Source of the DNA: a virus
Taxonomy: Duplodnaviria; Caudoviricetes
Direction: 5' to 3' (one strand)
Length of the DNA stretch: 58,981 nt
IMG/VR virus record: IMGVR_UViG_3300031785_000001
Span: 1 to 58,981 of that record
In this document: in pieces, positions 21,378-38,010 of the stretch
Layout: the number at the start of each line of letters is the position of its first letter
Position numbering within the stretch: the stretch's first letter is position 1
Made by a program: the position numbers and the translations under genes
Notes under the pieces: generated by a model
The model's database searches: none
The model's input: the letters and a program-made list of their open reading frames with translations, nothing else
What the model was told of the DNA's origin: nothing

Positions 21378-23314
21378 TAAGCACCTCTCGCTTCAGACAT
21401 CGGTATGAGGTTTCCTTTTTCAATCTCATTATTAATCTGCCCTTCTGGTCTCACTGATGCCCCTCTTGCTTTTTCCATAAGCATCATTTGTTGAGAAGGA
21501 CTTGGACCCTGTTGCTGTAGTTTCTCTTGGCTTACTCTAAATCGGTCTAGGTCTGTAATACCCATAGCTCGGATTGCTTCCTCAGCTATTTGACCTGCGT
21601 CATACTCCATATTCAAACCTGTCTGGTTCATAATTTGGAGCATATTCATCCACGACTCGGCATTTCTTGTAGGCTCTAAAGGAAGAGTTCCATCAATAAC
21701 CAAGTAGTCAATATTACCCTGCAAATCTTTAGAAACATCGTAATCAAGGTATCCATCCTTCACCATACTTTCTAACTGATTTGGCATATTAGATGAATCA
21801 ATTTTTATAGAACCTTCAAGACTTAATGAATCCTGTATGTTTGCAACCATCATCCTTACCATTGGTCGGATTGTAGTAGCTGACATTATTCGAGATAGGA
21901 CTCCTAGTCTTTGTGAACCAAGTTGTGTTAACCTTGAAATCTCAGTAGCGGTTCTTATGCCGTCAGTTGTAGGCATACCTTGTTGCGCATCTGAAGCCGC
22001 ACTGACTCTTTGCTTTAGTTCAGCCATTTGAGCTATGTCTTGGAAATGACCTCTGGTTACATCTGGAACTTGAGCTATAAAAACTCCATCGCCCGGTTTG
22101 GTTCCCGGTAATGTCCTTACAATTCCCCAAGGATTACGGTCAATCAAATCGGGTATGGAGACCTGAGTCGGGTCTGCAAAAATAAGATTATTCAAAGCGG
22201 CACTAATATTATCTATACGACTTCTCATTAGGTAAGTCGCAATATCGTGCATAGGAAGAATTAAATCATACAGCGATTGACCATAAGTTTTATGGGCGTC
22301 TTGGTATAGACCTCCTATAACTATTGGGAACTGCTGACCATATGGATTTAATTGTAATCTAATGCAAACATTTTCATCCATGATGGTTACAACAAGATAT
22401 ATCTGCTCAATGCTAGGTATACCTATTTCATGTCCTGTTAACTTTACCCATGCTTCATCTACAACTCTGGAATCTCCAAGAGTAAAGTAAGCATGGTCTG
22501 CTCGCTCTCTTTGATTAGGAGATGCGGGGTCTATAGAAAGACCCCTTCCCTCATCCCTATGCCAATGGTGTGCGTTCCATCCTTGTCTAGGTGGTGACAT
22601 CCTTTTTCTTAAGGCTGGAAATTTTTTCAACTTCGGGTATAGCCCTGTATTTACCAGAGAGTTGAAAGAGGCATAGTCTGCGAATACTATAAACTGCATG
22701 TTGTCCCAATCACCCCAATTAACTCTTGGGTCTGGGAAACATCTTCGTGGGTCGAAATTAACTAATTGGTTTTGGTTAGTCTTAGCGTCCCAAGAAACCT
22801 TTGTAGGAGCAAAGCCATATCTAATACTGTCAAGTAGAAGTTGTGCAAGACGAGCCTCTCCTGCTGTCCTTCTCATTTGTTGATGAAGAACTCTTTCAAG
22901 TATTAAAGCTGACTCTCTAGACTTTCTATTTAAACCTTCAAGCTGGAACATTGGGTTTCGTCCACCCAAAGCCGCCATTAGATATGTAAGAACTGTATCA
23001 CTGATTGCGCGAGTATCAGCAATAACTGCTTTTTCTCGGAACTCAGTTGCATCTGGTGGCACATATACATCGTGTGCGCGGTCTGCCTCTTTCCAATGAG
23101 GATACCTTTTCTGAATCTTGCCATGAGACATGTCCATCATAGACTTTACATAATCTACGATTCTTCTTTCTTGTTCATCATTTAATAAATGAGAGATGTC
23201 ATCATAATTCACAAGCTGTTCAGCATACTCAGATAAATCAACAATAATCCCTTCTCTATCGCTACCAGTGTACTCTGCATTACGATAGCCTGCGCTACTA
23301 TTCATTTCCGCCAT
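21377..23314 (-). CDS. Portal protein
   Basis: ~645 aa immediately after terminase; DSIRYGFAPTKVSW, RTATEI motifs; start set at MAEMN after AGGTGG. Confidence 0.85.
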   Translation of the reverse strand: MAEMNSSAGYRNAEYTGSDREGIIVDLSEYAEQLVNYDDISHLLNDEQERRIVDYVKSMMDMSHGKIQKRYPHWKEADRAHDVYVPPDATEFREKAVIADTRAISDTVLTYLMAALGGRNPMFQLEGLNRKSRESALILERVLHQQMRRTAGEARLAQLLLDSIRYGFAPTKVSWDAKTNQNQLVNFDPRRCFPDPRVNWGDWDNMQFIVFADYASFNSLVNTGLYPKLKKFPALRKRMSPPRQGWNAHHWHRDEGRGLSIDPASPNQRERADHAYFTLGDSRVVDEAWVKLTGHEIGIPSIEQIYLVVTIMDENVCIRLQLNPYGQQFPIVIGGLYQDAHKTYGQSLYDLILPMHDIATYLMRSRIDNISAALNNLIFADPTQVSIPDLIDRNPWGIVRTLPGTKPGDGVFIAQVPDVTRGHFQDIAQMAELKQRVSAASDAQQGMPTTDGIRTATEISRLTQLGSQRLGVLSRIMSATTIRPMVRMMVANIQDSLSLEGSIKIDSSNMPNQLESMVKDGYLDYDVSKDLQGNIDYLVIDGTLPLEPTRNAESWMNMLQIMNQTGLNMEYDAGQIAEEAIRAMGITDLDRFRVSQEKLQQQGPSPSQQMMLMEKARGASVRPEGQINNEIEKGNLIPMSEARGA

Positions 23315-23343
23315 ATTAATGCCCACCTATAATTACATGTGTA

Positions 23344-23374
23344 AAGATAACCGTTGAGATGCATTTGGTCGTCC
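23344..23374 (-). promoter_or_regulatory. Candidate late promoter GGACGACC-N17-TATCTT upstream of portal
   Basis: Motif family member. Confidence 0.5.
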
Positions 23375-23375
23375 T

Positions 23376-25004
23376 TTACATTAATCCCCAGCCTTGCCAT
23401 GTTGCTTTTGCTTTCTTAACTGTGTCTGCTAATGATTTACCCAAATCTTTATCCCTGTTGTTATTCAAAGATAGCTGTGGGTTTGCATGCATTTCCCATG
23501 CGTCTGGAGAGACAGCAGTTCTAGATAAAACATCTAAAGCAATAGTCATGGCGTCCACTTGGTCGTCATGGTTGCCGTTTGGAAAAGAAACACTCTCATC
23601 TATAAACGCATCGAGCCAAGGTGCTTCTTCTGGAATAAAGACTCTACCTCCTTCTATGAGAGGGAGAATCGTATTTGTTCTTGCTACTTTATCAGTATTC
23701 ACTTTATATGGAATAACAGATACGCCAGATTCTCTTTTCATTTCTTGTATAAGAGATTGACCACTGGCTTTATCTTCTATGTACATACCTCGGAGACCTT
23801 TGCCTCGCCATACATTATTAAGTCTTATTATTCTTTGTTTAAGTTCTGGAAAGTCATACTTGCCTCGCATTATGTCAACAAGGTATATGTCTCCGTTCTT
23901 ATCCATTCCAGCAACTACAGCAACGCTGTAGTCTGCTGTTTCTGTTTTCTTGAACGCTGTATCAACCCCTATAACTAAAGTGACAAAATTTTCTGGAGAT
24001 AAATCTACTGGGTACTTTCGCCACCATTCTGTTTTTATTAAGTTACCCCCTTCTATGTATGGTTGTTGCTGATACAGGGAAGCGAACTCTCGTGGGTTTA
24101 AGCGTTCTCTTCTTTTTAAGTCTGTTAAAGGAAAGCGTTCTTCCCATAAGGATTCTTCTTTTTCTGTTTCTATGTATCTCTTTTTGTGGGATAGATTTCT
24201 AAACTCATCTGGAGTCACCCAGTTGGGGTCATCTTCTTCTAAATGCCGTCTTGATATTTTCCCAGACTTAACTTTTTTTATAGCTGGAAAGTTGATGTGC
24301 TTCCATCTGCCTTCTTTCCAGTCTTCTGTATCCATAAGACGCCCAGCAAGGTCATCTGGATGCCAGCGAGTTAGGATTACTATTTGTTTAGGCGTTGTCC
24401 CATCATGCTCTGGCTGAAGACGAGTTGCTAATGCTGATGTGTAATAGTTCCATGTCTTGTTACGCTGGGTCATAGACTCAGCATCCTCACGAGACTTGAT
24501 AGGGTCATCCACTATTAATAAGTTTGCAGGACGACCTGATGTTGTACCTCCTACGCCAACAGCAAAATACGCACCGCCTTCTTCAGTTCGCCATACATCT
24601 GCCGCTCTAGACTCCTGTGAAAGTCTAAATGTTTCAAATGCCTGTGTAATTTGTTTCTGCTCTATGATTCCCCGAACTTGTCTACCAAAGTCTGTAGCAA
24701 GCTGGCTGTTATATGAGCAAGACATAATATATCTGTTAGGATTCCTAGCCATATACCAGCAGGGGAACAGCATTGTAGAGAATGTAGACTTTGCATGTCT
24801 TGGCGGCATGGTTATTAAAAGGTTGTCTGCGTCTAGCGAACCTTTTTCTAGTCTATCTAGGGCGTCTATTAGCTCTAACTGAAAGTCAGCTATTTCCCAT
24901 TCTGGATAAATTAGTTTTACAAATCCTAAGAATCCGTCTTGGGCGTCTTTAAGCGTTAATAGGTATTTAGCTACCTGAGCTTGTGATAATTTTGCTTTCT
25001 TCAT
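23376..25004 (-). CDS. terL: Terminase large subunit
   Basis: MPPRHAKS Walker A, LLIVDDP Walker B, TRWHPDDL, LYQQ, VDTA, FPNGNHDDQVDA. Confidence 0.95.
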   Translation of the reverse strand: MKKAKLSQAQVAKYLLTLKDAQDGFLGFVKLIYPEWEIADFQLELIDALDRLEKGSLDADNLLITMPPRHAKSTFSTMLFPCWYMARNPNRYIMSCSYNSQLATDFGRQVRGIIEQKQITQAFETFRLSQESRAADVWRTEEGGAYFAVGVGGTTSGRPANLLIVDDPIKSREDAESMTQRNKTWNYYTSALATRLQPEHDGTTPKQIVILTRWHPDDLAGRLMDTEDWKEGRWKHINFPAIKKVKSGKISRRHLEEDDPNWVTPDEFRNLSHKKRYIETEKEESLWEERFPLTDLKRRERLNPREFASLYQQQPYIEGGNLIKTEWWRKYPVDLSPENFVTLVIGVDTAFKKTETADYSVAVVAGMDKNGDIYLVDIMRGKYDFPELKQRIIRLNNVWRGKGLRGMYIEDKASGQSLIQEMKRESGVSVIPYKVNTDKVARTNTILPLIEGGRVFIPEEAPWLDAFIDESVSFPNGNHDDQVDAMTIALDVLSRTAVSPDAWEMHANPQLSLNNNRDKDLGKSLADTVKKAKATWQGWGLM

Positions 25005-25327
25005 TTCGTTGGCTTATGCATAAATGCAGTAGCTCCCATATATGTTCCAACTATTCCACACATAGAGAAATAGAATAAGCCAAGTAAGTCTGAAAGAGCA
25101 GATACTCTCTCATCAGATATGATAGGGGTAAACAAAGTTATGGTTACTACAACCATAATAAGTATTGCCAACCAAGCCATCATCTTTTGTGCTTCAGATT
25201 TTTCCTCACGAAGCTCTATATCTACCATCTCTTTAGAACGAGCTATCTCATCATCTGTAACAATGCCATCTTCATCTAAATCAAACTCGTTATACTTGGA
25301 TTTAACTTGTAGTTTTTTAGGAGTCAC
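25001..25327 (-). CDS. EF-hand-loop two-TM membrane protein
   Basis: DLDEDGIVTDDE 12-residue loop; two hydrophobic helices. Confidence 0.6.
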   Translation of the reverse strand: MTPKKLQVKSKYNEFDLDEDGIVTDDEIARSKEMVDIELREEKSEAQKMMAWLAILIMVVVTITLFTPIISDERVSALSDLLGLFYFSMCGIVGTYMGATAFMHKPTK

Positions 25328-25542
25328 TTTTTATTCCTCATTAGTCTGGATATATGGATTATTTGAGCCTGCTCTTTGTCTTTAATTGTGTCAGCCATAA
25401 CTTTCATTAAATGGTCCATTATGGCTTTGCTTCTATTATGCTCTGGAACGCCATCTAAGTTAAGTTGCGACATAGCTTTTCCGAAATCGTGGACAGTTAT
25501 ATTTGTTTCAAGTGCGTCAGCTTCCTGATTCTTTATCTTCAT
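25324..25542 (-). CDS. Hypothetical protein
   Basis: GGAGG RBS, coupled overlaps. Confidence 0.6.
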   Translation of the reverse strand: MKIKNQEADALETNITVHDFGKAMSQLNLDGVPEHNRSKAIMDHLMKVMADTIKDKEQAQIIHISRLMRNKK

Positions 25543-26011
25543 TCTTTACCTCCAATGCTTCTACTTCTATAGAAGATATACCAGAAGCTATAGCCTCTAA
25601 ATCTTCCCTAGATAGTTCTGTTATTTGCTTTGTCGTGTGTTCATGTTGAACAAACGATGCATTTAAGTCTGGTATTACCTTATTAAGAAGTATTCCAAAC
25701 ACCCTAGCCTGAGTTGGGTTCCATTCAATGCCTCCCATAACCACAGAATGAGCGTCTTTTATTTGGTCAGTTACATAAGTTGCTATTTGACCTCTTATTT
25801 TTGCTGATTCAGCCGGGGTTAGTTTTTCTTTTTGTACAAGTGATGTCATTTCTTCAGCCTTTCTAATATTGGGTGATAACTTTCTACATTCCATTGAGCA
25901 ATATTTTCTTCTTTCTTTATGGCTTGCTTTAGTTTTGAACTTCTTTTTGCAAGTAGCACATGTAATTTCAACAGAGTTCTGAACTTTATCCTCTTCATCT
26001 AGCGTTTTCAA
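25517..26011 (-). CDS. Probable terminase small subunit with N-terminal Zn ribbon
   Basis: CxxC...YCSxxC; TQARVFGILLNKVIPDL and ELSREDL motifs; upstream of terL. Confidence 0.6.
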   Translation of the reverse strand: MKTLDEEDKVQNSVEITCATCKKKFKTKASHKERRKYCSMECRKLSPNIRKAEEMTSLVQKEKLTPAESAKIRGQIATYVTDQIKDAHSVVMGGIEWNPTQARVFGILLNKVIPDLNASFVQHEHTTKQITELSREDLEAIASGISSIEVEALEVKNEDKESGS

Positions 26012-26039
26012 AATTTGCTCCGCTTAGTAGAGCCGTAGG

Positions 26040-26300
26040 GGAGGTGGCGATTTGGCGAAAACGGACGCGGGCGGGGACGCCCCGCCCCCCACTGCGCAGA
26101 ATCGGGCATATCCTAGTCCCAAAAGCCCGCAAACCCTTGATTTCCCTAGGTTTTCCGTCCCTTGTTAAGGGATTTTTAGCCCTTCTCGCGTGTATGCAAG
26201 ACGCAGGCGTTTTGAGTTCCTTGCTCGCAAGACCGATTTCGATAGGTTTTTCGCGCATGAGTGTAACCATTTCAGCAACTTAGCACCAAAGCCGAGGTCA
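26040..26300. other. Candidate packaging-initiation/genome-end region
   Basis: GC-rich divergence point; GGGCGGGG-ACG-CCCCGCCC palindrome (26069-26087); exact IHF consensus on minus strand at 26130-26142. Confidence 0.45.
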
Positions 26301-26308
26301 GGTCGTCC
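26277..26308 (-). promoter_or_regulatory. Candidate late promoter GGACGACC-N18-TAAGTT heading the packaging operon
   Basis: Motif family member. Confidence 0.45.
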
Positions 26309-26315
26309 CACGCGT

Positions 26316-26341
26316 AGTCCCGAAGGGACTTAAGGGGTGAG
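26316..26341 (+). promoter_or_regulatory. Early motif copy A: AGTCCC-GAA-GGGACT hairpin / AAGGGACTTA-N4-GTGAG
   Basis: Repeated at 28230-28248. Confidence 0.4.
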
Positions 26342-26359
26342 CCGACAGCAAGTCGGATT

Positions 26360-26394
26360 GCCCTCGCTGTGTGCGGAGGGTTCAAACGCACACA
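26360..26394 (+). promoter_or_regulatory. H-type RNA pseudoknot in leader of first early gene
   Basis: S1 GCCCUC/GAGGGU, S2 UGUGUGCG/CGCACACA. Confidence 0.5.
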
Positions 26395-26413
26395 CATTCA
26401 CAGGAGGTTCCAA

Positions 26414-26794
26414 ATGGAATCACAATCAGCGAAACAGTGCGCGCAAGCGTATGTGGACGCGAAAACCGCGTCTGCGAAGAAGAAAATCCTCACACAGGTA
26501 GGCGCGAAAGCCAAGACCTCGAAGCGAGTAAGGTGGTCACGCCTTCACGCGGACATGGTCGCAGGAGACGAAACTCGCATACTCGCGAGAGCGACAGGCG
26601 ACTGGTCAAAGGTCGAGCGCAAGCCCGCGAAAGCGAAGCCAACGGCTTCGGCAAAGCCGAAAGCTAAGGCAAAGCCAAGCGCGGATGTGAGCGTGATTAA
26701 CGCACTAGCGCAAGAGTTAGCCGACTCAGGCGCGGATGAGCAAGCGCAACTAGCGTTCCTACGCGTTGCAACGAAGTTGCTCAAGAAGTCCTAA
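26414..26794 (+). CDS. Basic Lys/Ala-rich early protein (126 aa)
   Basis: AGGAGG RBS then ATG 26414; PAKAKPTASAKPKAKAKP linker; own terminator. Confidence 0.75.
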   Translation: MESQSAKQCAQAYVDAKTASAKKKILTQVGAKAKTSKRVRWSRLHADMVAGDETRILARATGDWSKVERKPAKAKPTASAKPKAKAKPSADVSVINALAQELADSGADEQAQLAFLRVATKLLKKS

Positions 26795-26802
26795 CTCCCA
26801 AG

Positions 26803-26851
26803 ACGCAAGTGAGGGCGCAAGCCCTCGCTTGTGTGTTTTTTTGTTTTTTTT
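26803..26851 (+). terminator. Intrinsic terminator
   Basis: ACGCAAGTGAGGGC-GCAA-GCCCTCGCTTGTGT then long T tracts. Confidence 0.85.
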
Positions 26852-26872
26852 CATGCGCAATAGGAGACAGCT

Positions 26873-27079
26873 ATGCGAGTAAACAACGAGCGAACAAGAA
26901 CGATACTTTCGGCTATCGGCTATGTCGCGTTCACAGTCCTCTTCGGGCTGTTCATGGGCGTGATAGTCGTTGAATGGCTAGTAGGTTGTGGAGAGAAAAT
27001 CTACTACGCGGACGGAACATGGGTAACAGGCGAATGTATTTTTGTCCCATACGAGCCAACAACAGGCGAGTGGGGTTAA
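26873..27079 (+). CDS. Small membrane protein
   Basis: AGGAG RBS; one TM helix then GCGE..YYADGTWVTGEC. Confidence 0.75.
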   Translation: MRVNNERTRTILSAIGYVAFTVLFGLFMGVIVVEWLVGCGEKIYYADGTWVTGECIFVPYEPTTGEWG

Positions 27080-27145
27080 GACGAAATCCGCCCAATCGGG
27101 CGGGTAAGTGTGGTGTGAGAGACCACGCTCTGATGAGTCATCTCA
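27080..27145 (+). ncRNA. Type II hammerhead ribozyme with loop I-3' tail pseudoknot
   Basis: GAC-GAAA-[UCCGCCC aauc GGGCGGG]-UA^-[AGUGUGGU gugagag ACCACGCU]-CUGAUGA-GUC-A-UCUCA; complete catalytic core. Confidence 0.92.
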
Positions 27146-27165
27146 ACTAGCAAATGGAGGTGCTA

Positions 27166-27501
27166 ATGCACATTCAATTTATCGCATGGTCGAGCGAGAA
27201 TCGACCAAACAACGAGTGGCGAACGATACAAACAGGCGACATCAGTCCTGAGTTTTCTCTAGACGAGAACGGACTTGAAGAAACTAGCTTGTCTTGGTTC
27301 TTCGCAACCAAGTTTGATGAGCGAGGCAGTATCAACCCTGACGCAGAGCCTTGCGAGTCTTTTAACAACAACCCAATCATCTTACACGAGGGAGACATAC
27401 GAGAATTATCTCGCATGCCTAGTGCGTCAAGAGATTTTATCGAATTTGCCAAGAGTGCTATGGCAGACGATAAATGCGTGTATGTAGATGTATCTTGGTA
27501 A
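27166..27501 (+). CDS. Acidic hypothetical early protein
   Basis: GGAGG RBS at 27156-27160, ATG 27166. Confidence 0.7.
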   Translation: MHIQFIAWSSENRPNNEWRTIQTGDISPEFSLDENGLEETSLSWFFATKFDERGSINPDAEPCESFNNNPIILHEGDIRELSRMPSASRDFIEFAKSAMADDKCVYVDVSW

Positions 27502-27512
27502 GGAGGGAAACT

Positions 27513-28103
27513 ATGCCAAATTGGTGTGAAAACATAGCCACAATATCGCATGACAACAAAGAGTCCATGCAACCATTAGTCAATGCTCTCAAGAGCGTTA
27601 CGCAAGCGAGAAAAGAATACTATGACAAGCTAGACAACGAGTCTGTCACGGATACTTTTCAGGTGTGTTACGAAGCAAATTATGACGACTGTCCTGAGTT
27701 CTTTCAGGCAACACACCCAATGCCAGACGAACTTAAGGGAACATCATCCCCACAGGATAGCCCTAACTGGCATGACTGGAGACTAGCAAATTGGGGAACA
27801 AAGTGGGATGTCCGATACGACTCCCTCAAAATCCACAGCATGTCTGACACGAGCATAACAGTTCAGTTCGACACAGCTTGGTCTCCACCTCAAGAGTGGT
27901 ATGCGCACATGAGATTGTGGAATTTCAAGATAGACGCATACTATTTCGAGGGTGCTATGGACTTCTGCGGTCTAGACACGGAAGAGGACGGAGAAGAGAC
28001 CTACTCTTGCAGTCAACTAGACTTGATTCCAACTCGCATAGACCAGTTATTCGGTATCTCCGAATACTACAAGGAAATGGAAGAAATGCAGGAGGATGAA
28101 TAA
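27513..28103 (+). CDS. Api92/YubB (DUF1281)-like ferredoxin-fold protein
   Basis: MPNWCEN, WHDWRLANWGTKWD, FDTAWSPP, YFEGAMDFCG. Confidence 0.8.
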   Translation: MPNWCENIATISHDNKESMQPLVNALKSVTQARKEYYDKLDNESVTDTFQVCYEANYDDCPEFFQATHPMPDELKGTSSPQDSPNWHDWRLANWGTKWDVRYDSLKIHSMSDTSITVQFDTAWSPPQEWYAHMRLWNFKIDAYYFEGAMDFCGLDTEEDGEETYSCSQLDLIPTRIDQLFGISEYYKEMEEMQEDE

Positions 28104-28198
28104 TGCCCCCGTCAATCATCATTCTCATAGTTGTGTGGCTTGCATTGTTTGGACTAGCCATACTTTTAGGTTTCACCGCGTCCAATGGTGGAAAATAA
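28103..28198 (+). CDS. 31-aa single-TM peptide
   Basis: MPPSIIILIVVWLALFGLAILLGFTASNGGK; TAATG coupling, AGGAGG upstream. Confidence 0.55.
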   Translation: MPPSIIILIVVWLALFGLAILLGFTASNGGK

Positions 28199-28243
28199 TT
28201 CATTATGCGCAGGTCTGCGCTTCCCCTGAAAGGGACTTATATA

Positions 28244-28800
28244 GTGAGATTTGAATTTCGAGTTGTTCCGACTCGGAATAGGTCTAGCTGTGTGCTATCA
28301 GGACACATGGCTAGACCAACAAGAATTTGTCTCGGTTGTCAGTTAAGAATCCAATAAAACCCGCATGGCGAACGAAAAGTGTCTAGTGCGTGGAGACACT
28401 GTGGTGGAAAGTCACAGACGACTAAAGGAGACGAGTATAGGTGGGTAATAGCCGTCCTAGGTCACTACCCTTAATTCGTAGAGAATCAGTTGCGAGCTAA
28501 TCTGCGAACCTTCTGCGCGAGGTTATTAGTGCGTGTGTGTCTAGCCAATCTTGTTAGAACTGCTGACACAGTCATCTACCTCGTAGCAGACGAGCCATGT
28601 ATTCAAACATGAATAGACAATCCTCAACATATCCTGTTGGTGCTTTATGCACATATCAGGGGTGGTCACATACTGTAAGGAAGACCACAGCAAGTCGTTC
28701 ATTCGTGTTTGTCTAGTCTTGCACAACGCAAAGGCAAGACAGAGGTATCCCAAGATAGAGAATTGGGAGTTCACCTCGCCACCTAGGGGTGGTATGCACT
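28244..28800 (+). ncRNA. Large (~550 nt) multi-domain structured non-coding RNA candidate, family unrecognised
   Basis: More than 12 hairpins plus nested long-range helices with G-U pairs on + strand; no credible ORF. Confidence 0.65.
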
Positions 28801-28814
28801 TCTACTCCTAGGAT

Positions 28815-28855
28815 TTGACATTAGGTGTAACGCATATTATACACATACCTAATGT
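28815..28855 (+). promoter_or_regulatory. Sigma70-type promoter TTGACA-N17-TATACA with overlapping 9-bp inverted repeat
   Basis: ACATTAGGT(28818-26)...ACCTAATGT(28847-55). Confidence 0.6.
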
Positions 28856-28898
28856 GCTTTAACTTTAATTTTAACTTTAACCATTTACGGAGGTAAAT

Positions 28899-30842
28899 AT
28901 GGCACTTGAATGTTGCTTAGAGGAACTTCAACGAGTCCTCAGTGAGCCTAAGTTTGTCGATAGACGCAAAGGCTTACGAAAACTAGCTACTCCTATCCTA
29001 GAAAAGGAACTATCTCAGGCAGAAATTGAGTCTTGCAAAGCAGATAGTCCTGTCTGGGGTTCACGGGAGGGGCAAATCAACCCTAGCACAACAGTCTCAG
29101 GGTTGAGAGACAGTCTAGATACATCCACCTTGCTTGTTCTTATAGCTACACATCTAGATTGCAGAGGCGGTAAGACTCCGCCTGTTAACCCACTTATGAT
29201 TCTCGACAGTCTTTCAGACACAGACAATCTACACAAGTCTGAAAAGTCTTCGACAGGATACATATTTGGGAGACCAACCTTTACAGAGGATGATGATGTG
29301 ACCGAACTAGAAAAACACATCTTGTCCTTAGACACACCAACAACCGCAAAAGAGGAGACATCTATGTCTGGAAATCCATACGAAGAACTAGCTACTGATG
29401 AAATCATGCAAGTAATCCTGTCTCTTAGACAAGACTACGAAGAAGAAGATGTTAGGTCTGAGTTTAAGGATGTTCTTAGCAAGACCAAAGTGGTTGCTAT
29501 CGAAAGCATGCTTGAACTTGGTGCTGAGTATGACAGAGGTTATGTGTTTAGTCAGGTCGGCAGGCAGTTGAGGGTAGACATATCCACAAGGATAGATGCT
29601 CTGGACGAAGACACATCAGATGTGTCCGAGTCTAAGCCTGTTGTTTCTGAAGAGTTTGCTCCCTTACCAGATGAGGCAAGCTCTAACATGATTGACATGG
29701 TCTTGAAGAACGCAGGCTACACAGACATAACGACTAAGGCTCTGTGGGATAAGATTAGTGGTCAGAGCGACACCATAGCCAAGTTGAACGAGAGAGTAAG
29801 CACTCTTGCATTATCGAGTTCAGATGTTAGCGGTGGCTCAGACTCCATGCCCTCTAGTGAGGATATGCCAAACGGTAAGGTCGTAGTCAAACAGGCATAT
29901 GAAGTCTTCAATGTGGGTAGGCAGAAAAATCAATTCCTATTCAATGTCCCCGTTTATGAGTGGGATACACCACATCCTCATGTTCCTGAGATAGACAGCA
30001 ATTACCAATGGAACTACGACATCTTAAGACGAGTGCTTTACAGCATAATCTCTAACACAAGATGTTATTTGCATGGTCATACTGGCACAGGCAAGACGAC
30101 ATTCGTTGAGCAAGTTGCCGCGTGTCTTAAGTATCCGTTTATGAGAGTCAACTTTGATTCAGAGGTTACTCGTATGGACTTGATTGGTAGAGACACACTC
30201 AAGCAAGAGGACGGTGTAACTGTCTCCAAGTTTGAGGATGGAATACTGCCACAAATGATGAGTGGTCCATATATAGGGTGCTTTGATGAGATTGACTTTG
30301 TTAGACCTGATATTGCCTATGTAATGCAGAGAGCCTTAGAGGGTAATGGTCTGATGATTACAGAGGACGGTGGTCGTGTCGTTAAGCCACATAGAATGTT
30401 CCGAATGTTTGCTACAGGCAATACTGTGGGGCAAGGAGATGAGTTTGGTATGTATCAAGGTGCAAGACCACAATCTCTAGCCATGCTTGATAGATTCCAA
30501 GTCTGGGCGAATGTTCCTTACATGACCTCTCCACAAAGAAAGAAACTTATCAAGGCTAGTGTTCCCACATTAGAAGAGAAAGACCTAGATTCGATTAGCC
30601 AATATGTAGATGAGCATATGGTTGCTTTCAAATCTAGTGAGGTTATCCAACCGATTAGTCCTAGAGGTTATGTGTCATTAGCTAAAGCGGTGGTTGCTTT
30701 CTACGAGTTCTATCCTGACGCAAAAGCTGACAAGGCATTTCAGTCTGCCTTTGAGACTGTTGTTTTGGATAGGGCAAATGTTCAGGACAAGGTAGTTCTG
30801 AAAGCGATTGGTGACAGAGTATTCAACAAGACGGAGGTGTAA
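28899..30842 (+). CDS. CobS-like (MoxR-family) AAA+ ATPase with long N-terminal extension
   Basis: GHTGTGKT Walker A, FDEID Walker B, RMFATGNTVGQGD, LDRF, ISPR. Confidence 0.85.
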   Translation: MALECCLEELQRVLSEPKFVDRRKGLRKLATPILEKELSQAEIESCKADSPVWGSREGQINPSTTVSGLRDSLDTSTLLVLIATHLDCRGGKTPPVNPLMILDSLSDTDNLHKSEKSSTGYIFGRPTFTEDDDVTELEKHILSLDTPTTAKEETSMSGNPYEELATDEIMQVILSLRQDYEEEDVRSEFKDVLSKTKVVAIESMLELGAEYDRGYVFSQVGRQLRVDISTRIDALDEDTSDVSESKPVVSEEFAPLPDEASSNMIDMVLKNAGYTDITTKALWDKISGQSDTIAKLNERVSTLALSSSDVSGGSDSMPSSEDMPNGKVVVKQAYEVFNVGRQKNQFLFNVPVYEWDTPHPHVPEIDSNYQWNYDILRRVLYSIISNTRCYLHGHTGTGKTTFVEQVAACLKYPFMRVNFDSEVTRMDLIGRDTLKQEDGVTVSKFEDGILPQMMSGPYIGCFDEIDFVRPDIAYVMQRALEGNGLMITEDGGRVVKPHRMFRMFATGNTVGQGDEFGMYQGARPQSLAMLDRFQVWANVPYMTSPQRKKLIKASVPTLEEKDLDSISQYVDEHMVAFKSSEVIQPISPRGYVSLAKAVVAFYEFYPDAKADKAFQSAFETVVLDRANVQDKVVLKAIGDRVFNKTEV

Positions 30843-30843
30843 T

Positions 30844-32820
30844 ATGAAATCGACTCTATTTCAGCATGAGGTTAACAAGACTAGCACAATCTTTGGTCGT
30901 GACGAGAAAGTTAAAGTGGTTTTTCAAGGCGACCAAGCATGCACAGACGGAAACACAATCACGATTCCTACTCTTGATGACACACAGGATATTCCTGTGG
31001 AGAAACAACAGATAATTCGTGGGTATGTTGACCATGAGGCAGGGCATGTAAGACACACAGACTTTAGTGTTCTTCACGATAACCAAAAGTTGTTTGCTAG
31101 GGATAATTTACTTGCCCAATGCAACAATGCTTTAGAAGACATTTGGTTAGAGCGAAAGGTTATTTCTGAGTATGCAGGCGCAGAGAAAAATCTTAGGGCT
31201 GTGTCTAGCGCAGTCAATAAGGAGTTCCTTGACAGCATAGACAAGGATGATGAACGCATTGAAGACCCCAAGTTCATTGGTCCTGTGTCTCTCACATGGG
31301 AGGGTAGGAAAGACTATGGTGGAGAGGGCAATCAGGAATGTATTGACCTGTTACCCAAAGATTTTGCCAACAAACTACCTAACTACATCAAAGGTCTAGA
31401 CGCCTGTAAGGATAGCAAGGATGTCTTTACTCTTGCCAAGATAATCAGAAATCAATTCTCTTCTGACAAGCCAATGAGTGAGGAAGAGTTTGATGAGTTG
31501 GTTAAGGAAGCAATCAAGGACAAGACGAAATCTGTATCAGTGCCAGCAGAGCATGAAATTGAGGGTGCATCTGACGATTCTCGTGAGGGCGAAGACGGTT
31601 CTTCTGGTGACGGAGAAGAGAAATCCGACAAGACATCTAGCGTTGGAGATGATTCGGTAAGAGAAGAGGGTAATGATGATTGGAAGAGTGACCATGAATC
31701 AAAACATGATGAAACTCCTAGCGAACATTCAGGAGGGAGCGGTGTTGGTGCAGAAGAGAGAGCAACAACATCCGAGACCTACGAGAACTTTGATGTCGGC
31801 ACTATCTTGCAGAAAGAAATCTCTGATTACACATCAAAGTCAGGGGGTGGAGTTTATAGACCATTCTCTACTGCCTTTGATAAGTGGCATCACAGGAGCG
31901 ATGAGCATGGTCTGTATGGAACATACGATACTCTAGGTCACAGCATCCTATCTCATGGGCGTCCTGCAAAGTATGACAGGATACTCAACCAATCAAGTGG
32001 TCCAATAAATGTGATGAGACGCAAGCTAGAGAGATGTCTCCTTGCCAAGCAGAATAGAGATTGGTTAGGCAACCAAGAGGATGGGAGGTTAGATACTAGG
32101 CGTCTTGTTGGTGCGTTTAATGGCAGTGCCAATGTGTTTAGACAGAGGTCTCCTCTTCAGGAATTGGATACTGCTGTTACTGTTCTGATTGATTTGTCAG
32201 GCAGTATGCATGGCTCACGGGCAACCTTAGCTATGCAGGCTAGTATATGTCTTGCCGAAGCACTTGAGAGAACAGGGTGTGTTTACTCTGTGTATGGTTT
32301 CAATAACCAATCGAGTATGGCTTGGGAGAAACTAACGGAAGAGCAGAGAGAAGATTACTACAATGGTTCTTGGTCTCGAACAGAGTGTATGGATATGTTC
32401 ATATTCAAAGACTTTCAAGAGAGACTACACGATTGTAAGGGTGCTATGTCTCGCATAGCAGACTGCTCTAACGGTAATAACTCTGACGGCGAATCCATAC
32501 TTAAGGCTTACGGTAAATTAAAGAACAGGCGCGAGAGCAGAAAGGTTTATCTCGTTATGTCTGACGGATACCCCGCCTGTCACACCAACTGCACCGATAC
32601 TTTGTATCAGCATACAAGAGACGCAGTTAAGACTATCGAAGATGACGGTGTTGACATCATTGGTATAGGCATTGAGTCCAAAGCTGTGTCTAGGTTCTAT
32701 CCTAAGTATGTAGTGCTAGACAAAGTAGAAGACTTATCTGGTGCGGTTATGGATAAGCTGAGTAAAGCATTGTTAGGAGAGAGATTCGAGATTGATAACT
32801 CGGTCTTGCTCAATGCGTAA
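30844..32820 (+). CDS. CobT-like protein: N-terminal HExxH domain, acidic linker, C-terminal vWA
   Basis: RGYVDHEAGH, GRLDTRRL, LIDLSGSM (MIDAS), SDGYP. Confidence 0.85.
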   Translation: MKSTLFQHEVNKTSTIFGRDEKVKVVFQGDQACTDGNTITIPTLDDTQDIPVEKQQIIRGYVDHEAGHVRHTDFSVLHDNQKLFARDNLLAQCNNALEDIWLERKVISEYAGAEKNLRAVSSAVNKEFLDSIDKDDERIEDPKFIGPVSLTWEGRKDYGGEGNQECIDLLPKDFANKLPNYIKGLDACKDSKDVFTLAKIIRNQFSSDKPMSEEEFDELVKEAIKDKTKSVSVPAEHEIEGASDDSREGEDGSSGDGEEKSDKTSSVGDDSVREEGNDDWKSDHESKHDETPSEHSGGSGVGAEERATTSETYENFDVGTILQKEISDYTSKSGGGVYRPFSTAFDKWHHRSDEHGLYGTYDTLGHSILSHGRPAKYDRILNQSSGPINVMRRKLERCLLAKQNRDWLGNQEDGRLDTRRLVGAFNGSANVFRQRSPLQELDTAVTVLIDLSGSMHGSRATLAMQASICLAEALERTGCVYSVYGFNNQSSMAWEKLTEEQREDYYNGSWSRTECMDMFIFKDFQERLHDCKGAMSRIADCSNGNNSDGESILKAYGKLKNRRESRKVYLVMSDGYPACHTNCTDTLYQHTRDAVKTIEDDGVDIIGIGIESKAVSRFYPKYVVLDKVEDLSGAVMDKLSKALLGERFEIDNSVLLNA

Positions 32821-33004
32821 GGCTAGGAAGATTAGGGTGCGAACTGAATGGATGAGATTACATCCTAAGCGAAAAGGTAATCTGAGATTTTGGATAACTG
32901 TAGGCAAGAAGATTGCTGATAAAGGTATCAAGAAATCAGATGTGTCCGCAATTTATAACATTATTAAGGAGGTTGAGAATGAATATTTATTTTCTAGACG
33001 ATAA
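32813..33004 (+). CDS. Small basic hypothetical protein
   Basis: Overlaps the upstream stop; contains RBS for next gene. Confidence 0.5.
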   Translation: MRKARKIRVRTEWMRLHPKRKGNLRFWITVGKKIADKGIKKSDVSAIYNIIKEVENEYLFSRR

Positions 33005-33506
33005 GCCTGAGAGGGCTTGCGAGTATTTAGCAGACAAGCATGTCTTCAAGATGCTCAAAGACGCAGTATCAATAATGATTTCTGCAACAGCAGGAGAAGA
33101 GTCTTACTACCAGCAGATGAAAGCTGGGAAAGGAACCAATACCCAACTGATTGATTTCAGTATGGTTGATTGGGTTGTCAAAAGTCCAAAGCATTACTCT
33201 TGGGTATGGGATTATGGACTAGGTTGTTCCAAAGAAATGGAACACCGTTTTGGCGAAATTAATGACGCGGCAAACCAATATTCTAAACAGTTAATTCCTC
33301 TCTCGCTTATGCGAGAGGAAACTGAACATGATGTTTGGATTAATCCCCCCCGTATGATTCCCGATAAATACAAGATGAATTGGGGAGACTATATCGAGGG
33401 AGATAGAGTCGATAGTTGTCATGTTCAAAGCTATAGGAATTTCTATCGTGACTGTCACGGTGATAGCCATTGGACAAAGAGAGGTGCGCCGACATGGATA
33501 AGGTAA
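32979..33506 (+). CDS. Pyrimidine-dimer DNA glycosylase-like (DenV/Pyr_excise) protein
   Basis: MNIYFLD...DKHVFKM, SYRNFY, WTKRGAPTW; AAGGAGG RBS. Confidence 0.7.
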   Translation: MNIYFLDDKPERACEYLADKHVFKMLKDAVSIMISATAGEESYYQQMKAGKGTNTQLIDFSMVDWVVKSPKHYSWVWDYGLGCSKEMEHRFGEINDAANQYSKQLIPLSLMREETEHDVWINPPRMIPDKYKMNWGDYIEGDRVDSCHVQSYRNFYRDCHGDSHWTKRGAPTWIR

Positions 33507-33802
33507 AACACTGCGACAAGAAACTTAAATGGTGGGCTTGGCACAAAGATAACCCTCATGTCTATGACACATTCGAGAAGTATGCATTTGATGTGATAGA
33601 CGCAGGCAAAAAGAAGACAAGTGCGTGGCTCATCATCAATCGTATTCGGTGGGAGTATGAAATAGAAACCAAGGGTAGTGAGTTCAAAATCAGTAATGAT
33701 TACATAGCTTATTACTCAAGGTTGTTTATGGCATACCACCCTGAACATCAAATTTTTAACATCAAACCATTTAAACATGAGAGAGGAGGCTCGTATGAGT
33801 AG
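33494..33802 (+). CDS. Conserved phage hypothetical protein
   Basis: HKDNPHVY..F, RIRWE, FKISNDYIAYYSRLF. Confidence 0.75.
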   Translation: MDKVKHCDKKLKWWAWHKDNPHVYDTFEKYAFDVIDAGKKKTSAWLIINRIRWEYEIETKGSEFKISNDYIAYYSRLFMAYHPEHQIFNIKPFKHERGGSYE

Positions 33803-34406
33803 GCAAGAGAGACGCAAGCAACAGCTTGCAGAAAAGAAAACAGCTAAGAGATTAGCGAAGAAAGACTTGGTTCATCCTGTAGGTGGACCACTTGAGAGGG
33901 CTGAGATTATTCCCAAGACCTCTGCACAACTAGAAGCTATGGCAAAGCGCATGTGTGAAGAGATGCCTGACATGACATGGGAGTTAGCCATGCAGTCGCT
34001 TCTTGAAGCAGAGAAAGACCAAGAGGTTTACATCAATGATGTTTACCAAGTGTTGGTTTATCGTGGGGTTAACGCAGATGAGATGATTCATCAGCCAAAC
34101 CTTAAAGGTAAGTGCGTCTGGCTATCTATTAAGCGTAGAGACAAAACGCCTTGCACATCTTGGCAAGACTTTCAGACCATCAAGAATCGTCTCATAGGCA
34201 CAAGACATGATGCGATACAGATTTATCCAAGCGAAGAGCGAATGGTTAACACATCAAATCAATATCACATGATAGTGTTTCCAACACATTACACCATACC
34301 TTTTGGTTGGATGAGTAGGGCTGTTTCCACAGAAGATAAAGGACACAGCGAGCAAGAAGAACTTAACCGTGAATCTAAACAAAACTTTAAAGGAGAAATC
34401 ATATGA
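33795..34406 (+). CDS. Conserved phage hypothetical protein
   Basis: WLSIKRRD..SWQDFQTIKN..AIQIYP..VNTSNQYH. Confidence 0.75.
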   Translation: MSRQERRKQQLAEKKTAKRLAKKDLVHPVGGPLERAEIIPKTSAQLEAMAKRMCEEMPDMTWELAMQSLLEAEKDQEVYINDVYQVLVYRGVNADEMIHQPNLKGKCVWLSIKRRDKTPCTSWQDFQTIKNRLIGTRHDAIQIYPSEERMVNTSNQYHMIVFPTHYTIPFGWMSRAVSTEDKGHSEQEELNRESKQNFKGEII

Positions 34407-35011
34407 GTAAAGAAGATACAGCAGATAAGTTAGTCAAGAAGAAACTCAACGAGGTTGTTGACCTCAAAAAGGATGAGCCAATAGTTGATGTTGGTCCTAT
34501 GTTGGGTGTTCCTTTTGACGATAAGTTTCCTTGGGAAGATGATGACTTCTCTGACCTTGACGACTTTGACAAGGAGAGAGATGACTGGGACAGGAGTCGT
34601 CTTGAGGATTCATTACCTTCAGCATCCCCGGCGATAACACGCAAGACAAGAATCAAACCACAGACTGCACCTAAGTATGTGTCTAGAGACCTGTTCGATA
34701 GCGATGTCACTAGACCAAGCACAGATAAGAAGCTGTCTAGCATGCGTGATATTGGAGAGGTTGGTGTTCCCATTAAGGGATACACAAACTTTTCATTGGA
34801 TGACTTCAGCAAAATTACAGACACCATGTATATGCAAGTCTTGGATATGTGTGAAGAGGTTGGTTTCATTTTGAAAGGTGGAACTTTCTCAACAGGATTC
34901 AAGAAAGAGTTTAGACGCATGGTCTATGACGCGATGATGCATGAAGACGATGAGGGTAAGCGTAGGTGGATTTCAGTTAACAAAAAATTGCATGGTAAGG
35001 AGGATTTCTAA
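34403..35011 (+). CDS. Hypothetical protein
   Basis: AGGAG RBS, ATGA coupling. Confidence 0.7.
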   Translation: MSKEDTADKLVKKKLNEVVDLKKDEPIVDVGPMLGVPFDDKFPWEDDDFSDLDDFDKERDDWDRSRLEDSLPSASPAITRKTRIKPQTAPKYVSRDLFDSDVTRPSTDKKLSSMRDIGEVGVPIKGYTNFSLDDFSKITDTMYMQVLDMCEEVGFILKGGTFSTGFKKEFRRMVYDAMMHEDDEGKRRWISVNKKLHGKEDF

Positions 35012-35523
35012 TGAGCAATACAGTTGATATGGTAATGAATGTGTTTAATGGCTTGAATAAAGAAGAAAAGAAAGAGGTCATTATAAGAATAGGCGAGCAG
35101 GCGGAAGACATACTTGGGAGGAAAGCATTTCCCGAAAAGGCGTCTGTGCCAAAGGGTAAGAGTAAGAGGTGGAAATCTACAGGGAAGAGTCCTTACTGGA
35201 TTAAGACTGTTCAAGGTCTCAATGAGGGAACCGACAGTAGAGGTAAGCCTTACCAAGGTGCTTTCAAGATTGAGGGGTCTTTCATCAAGGACTTGCATAA
35301 GAACTGTGGAAATGACGAGGTCTTGTTACTTGGCACAAGAAGCCCCAAGGAATACAGGATTGCTCTATGGAAAGGTGAGTCGTCTGGTAAGGAGTTGAGT
35401 ATGCACCTAGACGATGTCGGAGAGGTAATCATCAAAGGTCTTGAGTGTATTAAGGTGAGTGACAACATAGACGACATCATTGAACACATGAAAGACAATG
35501 GTCCTTTGGAGTCATACAAATGA
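35011..35523 (+). CDS. Hypothetical protein
   Basis: AGGAGG RBS, TAATG coupling. Confidence 0.7.
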   Translation: MSNTVDMVMNVFNGLNKEEKKEVIIRIGEQAEDILGRKAFPEKASVPKGKSKRWKSTGKSPYWIKTVQGLNEGTDSRGKPYQGAFKIEGSFIKDLHKNCGNDEVLLLGTRSPKEYRIALWKGESSGKELSMHLDDVGEVIIKGLECIKVSDNIDDIIEHMKDNGPLESYK

Positions 35524-35881: not shown

Positions 35882-35882
35882 C

Positions 35883-36950: not shown

Positions 36951-36953
36951 TTA

Positions 36954-37967: not shown

Positions 37968-38010
37968 GTCGTTGCTATTTTTAAACTCGTGGTCAGAAAG
38001 GAGAAATGAA

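What the first reader, a model, noticed from the sequence alone, without database searches (positions are those of the whole stretch)
28244..28800. Large multi-domain structured ncRNA candidate of unrecognised family
Seen: the longest gene-free gap in a densely packed genome is filled with helices. Local: GGUCUAGCUGUGUG/CACAUGGCUAGACC (28281-28317), AGUGUCU/AGACACU, CUGUGGU/GUCACAG, UUCGUAGA/UCUGCGAA, UAUUCA/UGAAUA, GUGGUC/GACCAC, GUCUUGC/GCAAGAC, GAGGU-UCCCAA/UUGGGA-ACCUC, GCCACC/GGUGGU. Nested long-range: GAGAU(28246)/GUCUC(28329), GGCGAAC(28367)/GUUUGUC(28707), GACGACU(28417)/AGUCGUU(28693), ACGAG-UAGGUGG(28431-44)/UCAUCUA-CUCGU(28572-84). Possible kissing loop UGCGU(28387)/ACGCA(28726). 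Frequent G-U pairs favour RNA on the + strand. Known: phages carry large ncRNAs such as GOLLD and ROOL; I could not match this one by eye. Inference: a new large RNA class or ribozyme.
Basis: partly seen in the sequence, partly recalled or inferred. Interest (0 to 1): 0.85.

Follow-up and report, generated by a model that had tools for sequence, protein, structure and literature searches.

The report
Transcribed hairpin-rich spacer before phage cobS
A 700-base stretch without genes in a marine temperate phage is real non-coding DNA that turns up in RNA libraries, but it looks like an expanded terminator-and-promoter spacer peculiar to this one phage species, not a new class of large folded RNA.

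Summary
The window is one complete temperate CRP-810-type marine phage. The gap 28199-28898 is non-coding. No frame exceeds 86 codons, nothing matches a protein family, and strain variants carry 1-nt indels and a 34-nt insertion.

The proposed long-range helices have pairing probability 0.00-0.06. The shuffle z-score (-4.5 to -6.0) is matched by coding tiles of the same genome: 3 of 34 tiles reach -4.4 or lower. The signal sits in two border clusters, 28255-28320 (z -7.3) and 28700-28812 (z -4.0). The core is ordinary, z +0.2 to -2.4.

Rfam gives nothing. Outside near-identical strains no homologue was found, so covariation cannot be tested.

New here: contigs from four metatranscriptome runs cover 28342-28771. 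Their strand and ends are unknown.

Relatives have a compact terminator, a conserved operator-flanked promoter and cobS at this position. The window keeps that promoter at 28815-28850.

Best reading (0.4): a lineage-specific, expanded, transcribed terminator/insulator spacer or leader. An independent structured ncRNA remains possible (about 0.2). Interest is low to moderate.

The parts
28103..28198 (+). Last small ORF (31 codons, hydrophobic) of the upstream plus-strand operon; left border of the gap
   Evidence: ORF list. Its ATG overlaps the stop of the 209-aa gene 27474-28103, which carries a DUF1281_C domain.
28255..28320 (+). Two tandem near-perfect hairpins (11 bp at 28255-28279; 14+2 bp at 28281-28317) just behind the upstream operon. 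Putative transcript-end or insulator hairpins; no U-run follows.
   Evidence: -35.9 kcal/mol, z -7.31, 0 of 200 shuffles fold as well; pairing probability 0.99; inverted repeat I3. The terminator scan lists nothing here.
28342..28771 (.). Stretch found as contigs in four metatranscriptome runs; strand and true ends unknown
   Evidence: X18 covers 28342-28761 plus a 43-nt loose end that resembles the L004 insertion (depth 20). X20 covers 28342-28707 (15.2), X19 28408-28761 (39.5) and X17 28506-28677 (2.2, identical to the window). Segment z-scores here are +0.19, -0.56, -2.38 and -1.33.
28533..28571 (+). Variable hairpin, a hot spot of strain differences
   Evidence: One search places 4 of the 15 substitutions and 3 of the 5 one-base indels of the variant strain here. 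Searches give the predicted hairpin.
28700..28812 (+). Cluster of three hairpins directly upstream of the cobS promoter. The loop of the UCCCAA/UUGGGA hairpin (28754-28762) takes a 34-nt insertion in other strains.
   Evidence: -42.3 kcal/mol, z -3.99, 0 of 200 shuffles; 34-nt insertion in L004 after 28761; loose end behind 28761 in X18.
28815..28850 (+). Family-conserved promoter of the cobS-cobT operon (TTGACA, 17 nt, then TATACACA-type -10 region)
   Evidence: This is the only part of the gap with matches in distant relatives, and it aligns with them. The pattern occurs once in the window. That it is a promoter is inferred from the hexamers and their spacing; it was not shown.
28818..28855 (.). 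Perfect 9-nt inverted repeat (ACATTAGGT / ACCTAATGT) spanning the promoter. It contains the AGGTGT motif that flanks the promoter in relatives. Putative operator; on an RNA from upstream it would also form a hairpin followed by a U-rich tract.
   Evidence: I8; hairpin, z -2.17; AGGTGT motifs in relatives.
28899..30842 (+). cobS-like AAA+ ATPase gene; right border of the gap
   Evidence: AAA_5, E 7e-15. (45.7% identity over 98% of the length to CobS of Roseobacter phage CRP-810).

Best explanation
The gap is a species-specific, expanded version of the terminator-promoter spacer that related phages have between their early small-gene operon and cobS-cobT. It has three parts.

(1) 28199-28341: two very stable hairpins sit right behind the last ORF of the upstream plus-strand operon. 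I infer that they stop or pause its transcripts and block 3' exonucleases.

(2) 28342-28812: about 470 nt of non-coding sequence that is transcribed. I infer it is on the plus strand, made by read-through and processing or from an unrecognised promoter. Its body is only ordinarily structured. It ends in a second cluster of three hairpins that insulates the next promoter and stabilises the fragment, so it accumulates as a non-coding RNA tail or leader.

(3) 28813-28898: the family-conserved, operator-covered cobS promoter and a short leader.

Shown: the stretch is non-coding; the hairpin clusters exist; the promoter is conserved; relatives have a terminator at the same position; the stretch is present in RNA libraries. 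Inferred: the strand, the origin of the transcript, and the terminator, insulator and stabiliser roles.
For: Synteny. Relatives keep the order: p26369 homologue, p26873 homologue, (p27474 homologue), cobS.

In L035, L025, L010, L006 and CRP-810 the corresponding spacer holds a small ORF, a conserved hairpin plus T-run, the conserved promoter flanked by AGGTGT motifs, and a 16-codon uORF overlapping the cobS start. The terminator scan finds the hairpin plus T-run in L035 at 1245-1276 with 13 pairs.

The window shares only the promoter with these relatives.

The folding signal sits at the two borders of the gap, z -7.31 and -3.99. The core is ordinary.

The stretch is non-coding. The longest stop-to-stop frame is 86 codons. 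There is no family hit at E < 0.05 for the 8 longest frames, and no tblastn hit below E 0.046 for 26 six-frame pieces against the other 256 loci. One-base indels fall at 5 places and a 34-nt insertion in strain variants.

Three of the six indel events (28356, 28585 and the 34-nt insertion) fall in predicted loops or unpaired runs.

RNA-library contigs cover 28342-28771 in 4 runs from 4 studies. Three of those studies are from the same year and library type and may be one campaign.

All flanking genes are on the plus strand.
Against: No canonical intrinsic terminator on the plus strand is listed anywhere in 28199-28898. None of the hairpins is followed by a clear U-run, except the long-looped promoter palindrome.

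No promoter is recognisable upstream of 28342. No contig joins the upstream gene to the stretch.

The strand of the RNA is unknown, because contigs carry no strand. A weak minus-strand terminator-like site (28373-28359 plus T-run) lies next to the contig end at 28342.

The runs were selected because they hold this stretch. Contig depth is a poor measure of expression: in X18 a cobS piece has depth 22.6 against 20 for the stretch, and in X20 a portal piece has 12.6 against 15.2. DNA carry-over cannot be excluded.

One well-predicted small hairpin (28640-28652) is broken by 3 substitutions in the variant strain.

There is no sign of special constraint. The variant strain differs at 15 substitutions plus 5 indels in 420 nt, similar to flanking genes at 1.3-3.3%. 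The low divergence from L004 (1 substitution in 234 nt) is matched by 12% of windows in the 6-kb comparison.
Confidence: 0.4

Rival explanations
1. An independent, trans-acting structured non-coding RNA of about 0.45-0.6 kb. It would be made from the prophage or during infection and act as, for example, an immunity or regulatory RNA, an anti-defence RNA or a protein sponge.
For: An island of RNA-library contigs covers 28342-28771, in two runs with the same left end at 28342 and no loose end there. In three of the four runs these are, after the integrase contigs, the longest RNA contigs of the 20 kb laid. The stretch is clearly non-coding. Indels fall in hairpin loops. The motif GTCTAG recurs 5 times in 28282-28716, against 50 copies in 59 kb counted on both strands.
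Against: The core is not more structured than shuffles or than the rest of the genome. The long-range helices are unsupported. No homologue exists beyond the species, so there is no covariation. No promoter or terminator is recognisable. There is no complementarity to the rest of the genome beyond chance: 4 shared 12-mers and 0 shared 14-mers. One predicted hairpin is destroyed in the variant strain. The contig ends may be assembly branch points.
Confidence: 0.2
2. The stretch has no RNA-level function. It is a spacer of decayed or imported DNA, possibly with protein-binding sites. It would appear in RNA libraries only through pervasive read-through transcription or DNA carry-over.
For: It occurs in one species only. 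It diverges about as fast as neighbouring genes and collects indels. Its folding is unremarkable against the genome. Structural-gene pieces also appear in the same RNA runs at low depth, so background signal exists.
Against: No trace of a former gene was found. Word depth (15-40) is above most other pieces (2-8) in the same runs, although not all of them. The two border hairpin clusters are far beyond chance.
Confidence: 0.2
3. A minus-strand transcript that starts near or inside the cobS promoter region and runs leftwards to about 28342. It would be antisense to any read-through from upstream and would interfere with the cobS promoter.
For: A promoter-like site lies on the minus strand at 28897-28868 (9 of 12 matches). 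A terminator-like site lies on the minus strand at 28373-28359 with a T-run next to the shared contig end at 28342. The minus strand of 28342-28812 also folds below shuffles, z -2.33.
Against: Both sites are at chance level: 6 promoter-like sites were found against 7.4 expected, and the terminator stem has three G-U pairs. The contig end lies about 17 bases past the stem. Every neighbouring gene is on the plus strand. The two strongest hairpins carry G-U pairs only on the plus strand.
Confidence: 0.1
4. An RNA-primed replication origin, with the transcript serving as a pre-primer. Known parallels are ColE1 RNA II and the non-coding RNA regions of 400-497 bp required for replication of extrachromosomal mycobacteriophage prophages.
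For: The size is similar and the expression is apparently constitutive. The precedent is in PMC7157519 (passages read).
Against: This phage has an integrase and a primase-helicase 14 kb away. The precedent concerns phages that lack an integration cassette and carry parABS. There is no GC-skew turning point at 28.5 kb. No iteron or AT-rich unwinding pattern appears apart from TTTAAC repeats in the cobS leader.
Confidence: 0.05

Closest known systems
The terminator-promoter spacer upstream of cobS in other CRP-810-type phages (L035, L025, L010, L006, Roseobacter phage CRP-810)
   Same: Same position in a syntenic gene order. Same conserved promoter with AGGTGT motifs. Both separate an upstream small-gene operon from cobS-cobT.
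   Different: In relatives the promoter lies about 180 nt upstream of cobS. Between a conserved small ORF upstream and cobS they hold one canonical intrinsic terminator, the promoter and a 16-codon uORF. The window has about 610 nt of unrelated non-coding sequence before the promoter, no canonical terminator, no uORF, and an RNA product covering the middle.
GOLLD and ROOL, large ornate RNAs often found in phages and prophages
   Same: Phage-borne, non-coding, several hundred nucleotides long.
   Different: No Rfam match at gathering score or at E <= 10. Those families are defined by covariation-supported multi-domain folds shared by many genomes. Here the long-range helices are unsupported and the element is confined to one species. 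I recall from memory that GOLLD and ROOL often lie next to tRNA genes; the window has no tRNA gene.
Stable processed untranslated RNA fragments of bacterial and phage operons (3'-UTR-derived or leader-derived RNAs). This is general knowledge recalled from memory, not tested here.
   Same: A non-coding stretch between operons, bounded by stable hairpins, and present in RNA libraries.
   Different: No end mapping, no strand information, and no regulator or target is known. At about 470 nt it is longer than typical examples.
Non-coding RNA regions required for replication of extrachromosomal mycobacteriophage prophages (PMC7157519; passages read)
   Same: A 400-500 bp transcribed non-coding region in a temperate phage.
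   Different: Those phages lack an integrase and the RNA lies beside parABS. This phage has an integrase, and no par genes were noticed. There is no sequence relation.

Membership tests
Any Rfam 15 family (including GOLLD, ROOL, HEARO, OLE, cobalamin riboswitches, ribozymes, RNase P, tmRNA, 6S) | Covariance-model score at or above the family's gathering score | tested here: not met
   0 matches in the whole window at gathering score. In 28050-29000 at E <= 10 there are 4 chance-level matches, the best being CRISPR-DR45 at 19.5 bits against a gathering score of 37, E = 2. ARAGORN finds no tRNA or tmRNA.
   Homologues were found only in near-identical strains: L004 and RNA contigs about 96% identical. 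Nothing was found in GenBank phages, IMG/VR through cobS or p27474 neighbours, JGI metagenome contigs, GTDB genome contigs or 5 related records. With one variant strain, 0 compensatory double changes were seen. On the plus-strand fold of 28342-28812, 4 changes kept a pair and 3 broke one.
   z is -4.5 to -6.0 for 28200-28900 and -3.16 for the RNA-covered part. Of 34 genome tiles, 3 have z <= -4.4 and 9 have z <= -3. Core 300-nt windows rank 232 and 253 of 1174.
   Contigs from 4 RNA runs cover 28342-28771, and two share the end at 28342. Contigs cannot show strand, ends or level, and the runs were chosen because they hold the stretch.
Rho-independent terminator / transcriptional insulator | G+C-rich hairpin followed by a U-run on the transcribed strand | tested here: not met
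   No plus-strand terminator-like site lies in 28199-28898. The strong hairpins at 28255-28317 and 28710-28812 lack a U-run. The relative L035 has a canonical one at the same position. The functional claim 'works as a transcript end or insulator' therefore rests on position and stability only.
Sigma-70-type promoter shared by CRP-810-type phages | Conserved -35 and -10 elements at fixed spacing upstream of cobS in relatives | tested here: met
   28815-28850 aligns with TTGAC-N17-(G/A)TTATACACA of L025, L010-12, L035, L008/9, L006/7 and L001. Promoter activity itself was not tested.
RNA-based prophage replication origin (mycobacteriophage type) | Phage lacks an integration cassette; the RNA lies next to parABS and is required for plasmid-like replication | tested here: not met
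   An integrase is present (Phage_integrase, E 1.1e-27). The replication requirement cannot be tested with these tools.

The most novel reading that the evidence does not exclude
A species-restricted non-coding RNA of about 450-600 nt, bounded by hairpin clusters, that a temperate marine phage expresses (perhaps from the prophage, together with an integrase-internal RNA) and that acts in trans. Candidate roles are immunity, anti-defence or host manipulation. This would be a young, fast-evolving phage RNA gene with no relatives in any database.
Probability: 0.18. Interest if true: 0.55.

Novelty: new member of a known kind. Interest (0 to 1): 0.27.

Why it matters
If the best reading holds, this is an ordinary piece of phage gene-regulation architecture in an unusual, expanded form. 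It is useful for annotating CRP-810-type phages: the position of the conserved cobS promoter and operator, and the absence of a hidden gene.

It would matter more if the RNA proved to be a discrete trans-acting product. Temperate phages of abundant marine bacteria would then carry private, rapidly evolving RNA genes that homology-based RNA discovery cannot see.

The check also gives a practical warning. In this genome, dinucleotide-shuffle z-scores of -4 to -6.7 are reached by ordinary coding regions. Such scores alone should not nominate structured RNAs.

Tried and rejected
Searches for homologues:
- blastn (distant mode) of 28100-28950 against 50,697 GenBank phage records found no match.
- 37 IMG/VR loci were collected through cobS. 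blastn and nhmmer found only L004 plus short promoter matches.
- 80 IMG/VR loci were collected through the upstream gene p27474; the best has 35% identity, so there is no close relative.
- Two exact-pattern scans of IMG/VR returned 15 and 120 stretches, all chance. blastn at E <= 0.01 gave only two 23-nt matches.
- The JGI metagenome contig scan with the cobS N-terminus matched 169 pattern stretches, none of them a relative. The scan with a 22-mer gave 0 matches.
- The GTDB genome contig scan found 1 partial cobS at 58% identity without its upstream DNA.
- A DNA search of 5 related records found only L004's record.

Coding tests:
- Pfam on three small ORFs of the gap gave nothing.
- PHROGs on 8 frames gave a best E of 0.053.
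- tblastn of 26 six-frame pieces gave a best E of 0.046.

Other readings considered and dropped:
- Cobalamin riboswitch, ribozymes, tmRNA, RNase P: no Rfam or ARAGORN hit.
- Origin of replication by GC skew: the skew simply follows gene strand, with its minimum near 25.5-26 kb.
- Virion RNA polymerase with hairpin promoters: the 3206-aa protein shows only a weak ART-PolyVal hit and a virion-protein hit. The CRP-810 paper does not mention an RNA polymerase (term search).
- Antisense targets in the phage genome: shared words are at chance level.
- Extra conservation against L004: 1 substitution in 234 nt, but 12% of windows of that size have <= 1.

Parts of the laid 20 kb without RNA contigs were not used as evidence. 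These include 27838-28341 and 28772-29171, where the bin depths are fully accounted for by the one contig.

The control windows were picked after I had seen, so they were not blind. The systematic tiles replace them.

Full report
**Context.** The 58,981-base window is one complete virus record with direct terminal repeats.
- Its cobS-like AAA+ ATPase (28899-30842) is 45.7% identical over 98% of its length to CobS of Roseobacter phage CRP-810.
- cobT follows cobS. A terminase and an SU10-type portal lie on the minus-strand arm. Recombination and primase-helicase genes lie further right. A tyrosine integrase sits at 36954-37967.
- The CRP-810 paper (PMC11288001) describes this as a new, mostly temperate, globally distributed family. 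I read passages and section 9. The terms 'noncoding', 'non-coding', 'intergenic' and 'promoter' have 0 occurrences there.

**The observation.**
- The gap runs from the stop of a 31-codon hydrophobic ORF (28198) to the cobS start (28899).
- Four local hairpins are predicted with probability 0.93-0.99, and five others with 0.00-0.42.
- The five nested long-range helices have probability 0.00-0.06 and none of their pairs is in the MFE.
The first is in the MFE.

**Is it coding?** No.
- The longest stop-to-stop frame in the gap is 86 codons, on the minus strand.
- The near-identical contig L004 has a 34-nt insertion after 28761 that frameshifts that frame and the 54-codon plus-strand ORF.
- A strain about 96% identical, seen in RNA contigs, has one-base indels at 28356, 28541, 28556, 28565 and 28585.
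- Pfam finds nothing for three ORFs of the gap. PHROGs gives nothing better than E 0.053 for eight frames. tblastn of 26 six-frame pieces against the other loci gives nothing better than E 0.046.

**Is the folding more than chance?**
- Against dinucleotide shuffles, yes. For 28200-28900, z is -5.97 on the plus strand and -4.44 on the minus strand, and -4.53 in my own run, 20 shuffles each.
- Against the genome, no. In a systematic tiling (701 nt every 1400; 34 of 42 tiles finished), 3 tiles have z <= -4.4 and 9 have z <= -3, mostly in plus-strand coding DNA between 26 and 38 kb.
- In 1174 windows of 300 nt, with energy regressed on composition, the region's best window ranks 7th (28601-28900, which includes the promoter palindrome). 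The core windows 28301-28600 and 28401-28700 rank 232nd and 253rd.
- The part covered by RNA contigs, 28342-28812, has z -3.16 (plus) and -2.33 (minus) with 100 shuffles.
- Cutting the gap into eight pieces shows where the signal comes from:

| Segment | z |
|---|---|
| 28200-28254 | -1.78 |
| 28255-28320 | -7.31 |
| 28342-28425 | +0.19 |
| 28426-28515 | -0.56 |
| 28510-28600 | -2.38 |
| 28596-28700 | -1.33 |
| 28700-28812 | -3.99 |
| 28813-28898 | -2.17 |

- The plus-strand advantage in energy (21 kcal/mol) and in G-U pairs equals that of neighbouring plus-strand genes (19-28 kcal/mol). It therefore says nothing about an RNA.

**Known families.** Rfam 15 gives 0 matches at gathering score in the whole window and only chance-level matches (E >= 2) in 28050-29000. 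ARAGORN finds no tRNA or tmRNA.

**Homologues.** The element is confined to this species.
- Nothing was found in GenBank phages.
- Of 37 IMG/VR loci with a cobS relative, only L004 (97% CobS identity) shares the stretch, and its contig begins at window position 28579. The next relative, L035 (65%), and all the others share only about 20-37 nt at the promoter.
- No IMG/VR contig has a close copy of the upstream gene (best 35%).
- Metagenome contig scans, the genome contig scan, exact-pattern scans and a search of five related records added nothing.
- Covariation therefore cannot be tested. Mapping the variant strain's 15 substitutions onto the plus-strand fold of 28342-28812 gives: 8 unpaired; 4 at paired positions that keep pairing (all to or from G-U); and 3 that destroy one small hairpin (28640-28652). 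There are no compensatory double changes. The minus strand fares similarly, with 3 kept and 4 broken.
- Against L004, the 234 shared nt have 1 substitution, compared with 2.6% in cobS and cobT. Divergence is clumped, however, and 12% of 234-nt windows have <= 1.

**What relatives have at this place.**
- Gene order is conserved.
- In L035, L025, L010, L006 and CRP-810 the spacer before cobS holds: a small conserved ORF; a conserved hairpin with a T-run, called a terminator in L035 (1245-1276, 13 pairs); a promoter GTTGAC-N17-GTTATACACA flanked by AGGTGT motifs; and a 16-codon uORF whose stop overlaps the cobS ATG.
- The long arginine-rich 'ORFs' across this spacer are artefacts of high G+C.
- The window keeps the promoter (28815-28850, the only copy of the pattern) inside a perfect 9-nt inverted repeat (28818-28826 / 28847-28855). 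It has no canonical terminator and no uORF.
- About 610 nt of unrelated sequence stands where relatives have a terminator.

**RNA evidence.**
- Sixteen DNA runs hold 99-100% of the stretch's sampled words. Four metatranscriptome runs hold 10-15%.
- I laid those four on 18500-38499. X18 and X20 have contigs starting at exactly 28342, reaching 28761 (plus a 43-nt loose end resembling the L004 insertion) and 28707. X19 covers 28408-28761. X17 covers 28506-28677 and is identical to the window.
- Word depths are 20, 15.2, 39.5 and 2.2. Most other pieces of the phage in the same runs have 2-8. A cobS piece has 22.6 in X18 and a portal piece 12.6 in X20. The integrase pieces have 55-97.
- Caveats stated by the tool: the runs were chosen because they hold this stretch; contig depth cannot rank genes; contigs show neither strand nor ends; DNA may be present in RNA libraries.
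- I therefore take as shown only that the stretch occurs in RNA libraries of at least two campaigns. The shared end at 28342 is a weak hint of a real RNA end or an assembly branch point.

**Reading.** The anatomy is:
- a hairpin cluster behind the upstream operon;
- an ordinarily structured, transcribed, fast-changing middle whose indels sit in loops;
- a second hairpin cluster;
- the conserved, operator-covered promoter.

Together with the terminator-promoter arrangement of relatives, this fits best with an expanded, species-specific intergenic insulator or leader whose RNA accumulates because it is capped by stable hairpins (confidence 0.4).

The rivals are:

| Rival | Confidence |
|---|---|
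| Independent trans-acting RNA | 0.2 |
| No RNA function | 0.2 |
| Minus-strand transcript | 0.1 |
| RNA-primed origin, like the mycobacteriophage precedent of PMC7157519 (passages read) | 0.05 |

Literature searches for marine prophage non-coding RNAs and for GOLLD/ROOL in phages turned up nothing describing this element. I saw search listings only, except PMC7157519.

**Verdict.** The interpretation as a new large multi-domain RNA class is not supported, though a private non-coding transcript is likely.

Noticed in passing
window 37327-37874 (inside the integrase gene 36954-37967): RNA-library contigs over the 3' two-thirds of the integrase ORF have by far the highest word depth of the 20 kb laid (90, 97 and 55 in X18, X19 and X20). 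Contigs on the 5' third have 5.5-6.6. In X19 an Illumina adapter remnant abuts 37329, so many fragments end exactly there. This could be an internal start, an antisense RNA or a stable fragment.
   Followed up: partly
L035 1040-1510, L025 1-447, L010 2790-3257, L006 2930-3411, L001 1500-1830; window 28815-28855: CRP-810-type phages share a conserved promoter (GTTGAC-N17-GTTATACACA) flanked by AGGTGT motifs upstream of cobS, preceded by a conserved intrinsic terminator. This is probably the operator set of a family-wide regulator.
   Followed up: partly
L025 about 390-447, L035 about 1455-1510 (just upstream of cobS): Relatives have a 16-codon uORF (MSSFAVQNSKQKEPPQ / MGNFVVQNSKQKEPPQ) with its own AAGGA ribosome-binding site. 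Its stop overlaps the cobS ATG (ATGA), which suggests translational coupling. The window lacks it.
   Followed up: no
window-wide; 28282-28716: GTCTAG occurs 50 times against 30.6 +/- 5.1 in shuffles. Five copies lie in 28282-28716, mostly as (G/T)GTCTAG. The 34-nt loop insertion of L004 carries GTGTCTAA. A protein-binding or RNA motif is possible. One copy is disrupted in the variant strain.
   Followed up: partly
window 36401-37101, 37801-38501, 45500-46200, 33500-34200, 26601-27301: Stretches that are mainly coding fold with z -4.5 to -6.7 against dinucleotide shuffles on the plus strand. Dinucleotide shuffles are a poor null model in this genome. Alternatively, further RNA structure is hidden in the early genes.
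   Followed up: no
window 36331-36953: This is the second-largest stretch without a credible gene (623 nt; the 1-kb bin 36001-37000 has 35% G+C), directly upstream of the integrase. It is the likely attP region. No tRNA gene is present, unlike in CRP-810.
   Followed up: no
window 49147-58767 (minus strand): A 3206-aa ORF has only a weak ART-PolyVal match (E 2e-4, below the cut-off) and a virion-structural PHROG match. It looks like a giant polyvalent virion protein, with no sign of an RNA polymerase.
   Followed up: partly
window 26803-26834: A strong canonical intrinsic terminator (14 pairs followed by a T-run) lies just after the first plus-strand early gene, 26369-26794. Canonical terminators are therefore used in this genome, which makes their absence from the gap notable.
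   Followed up: no
window 28858-28880: TTTAACTTTAA is repeated twice in tandem in the A+T-rich cobS leader, between the promoter palindrome and the GGAGG ribosome-binding site.
   Followed up: no
L004 against window 28579-34835: Substitutions between the two strains are strongly clumped, 0 to 21 per 234 nt. This suggests mosaic recombination among co-occurring strains.
   Followed up: partly
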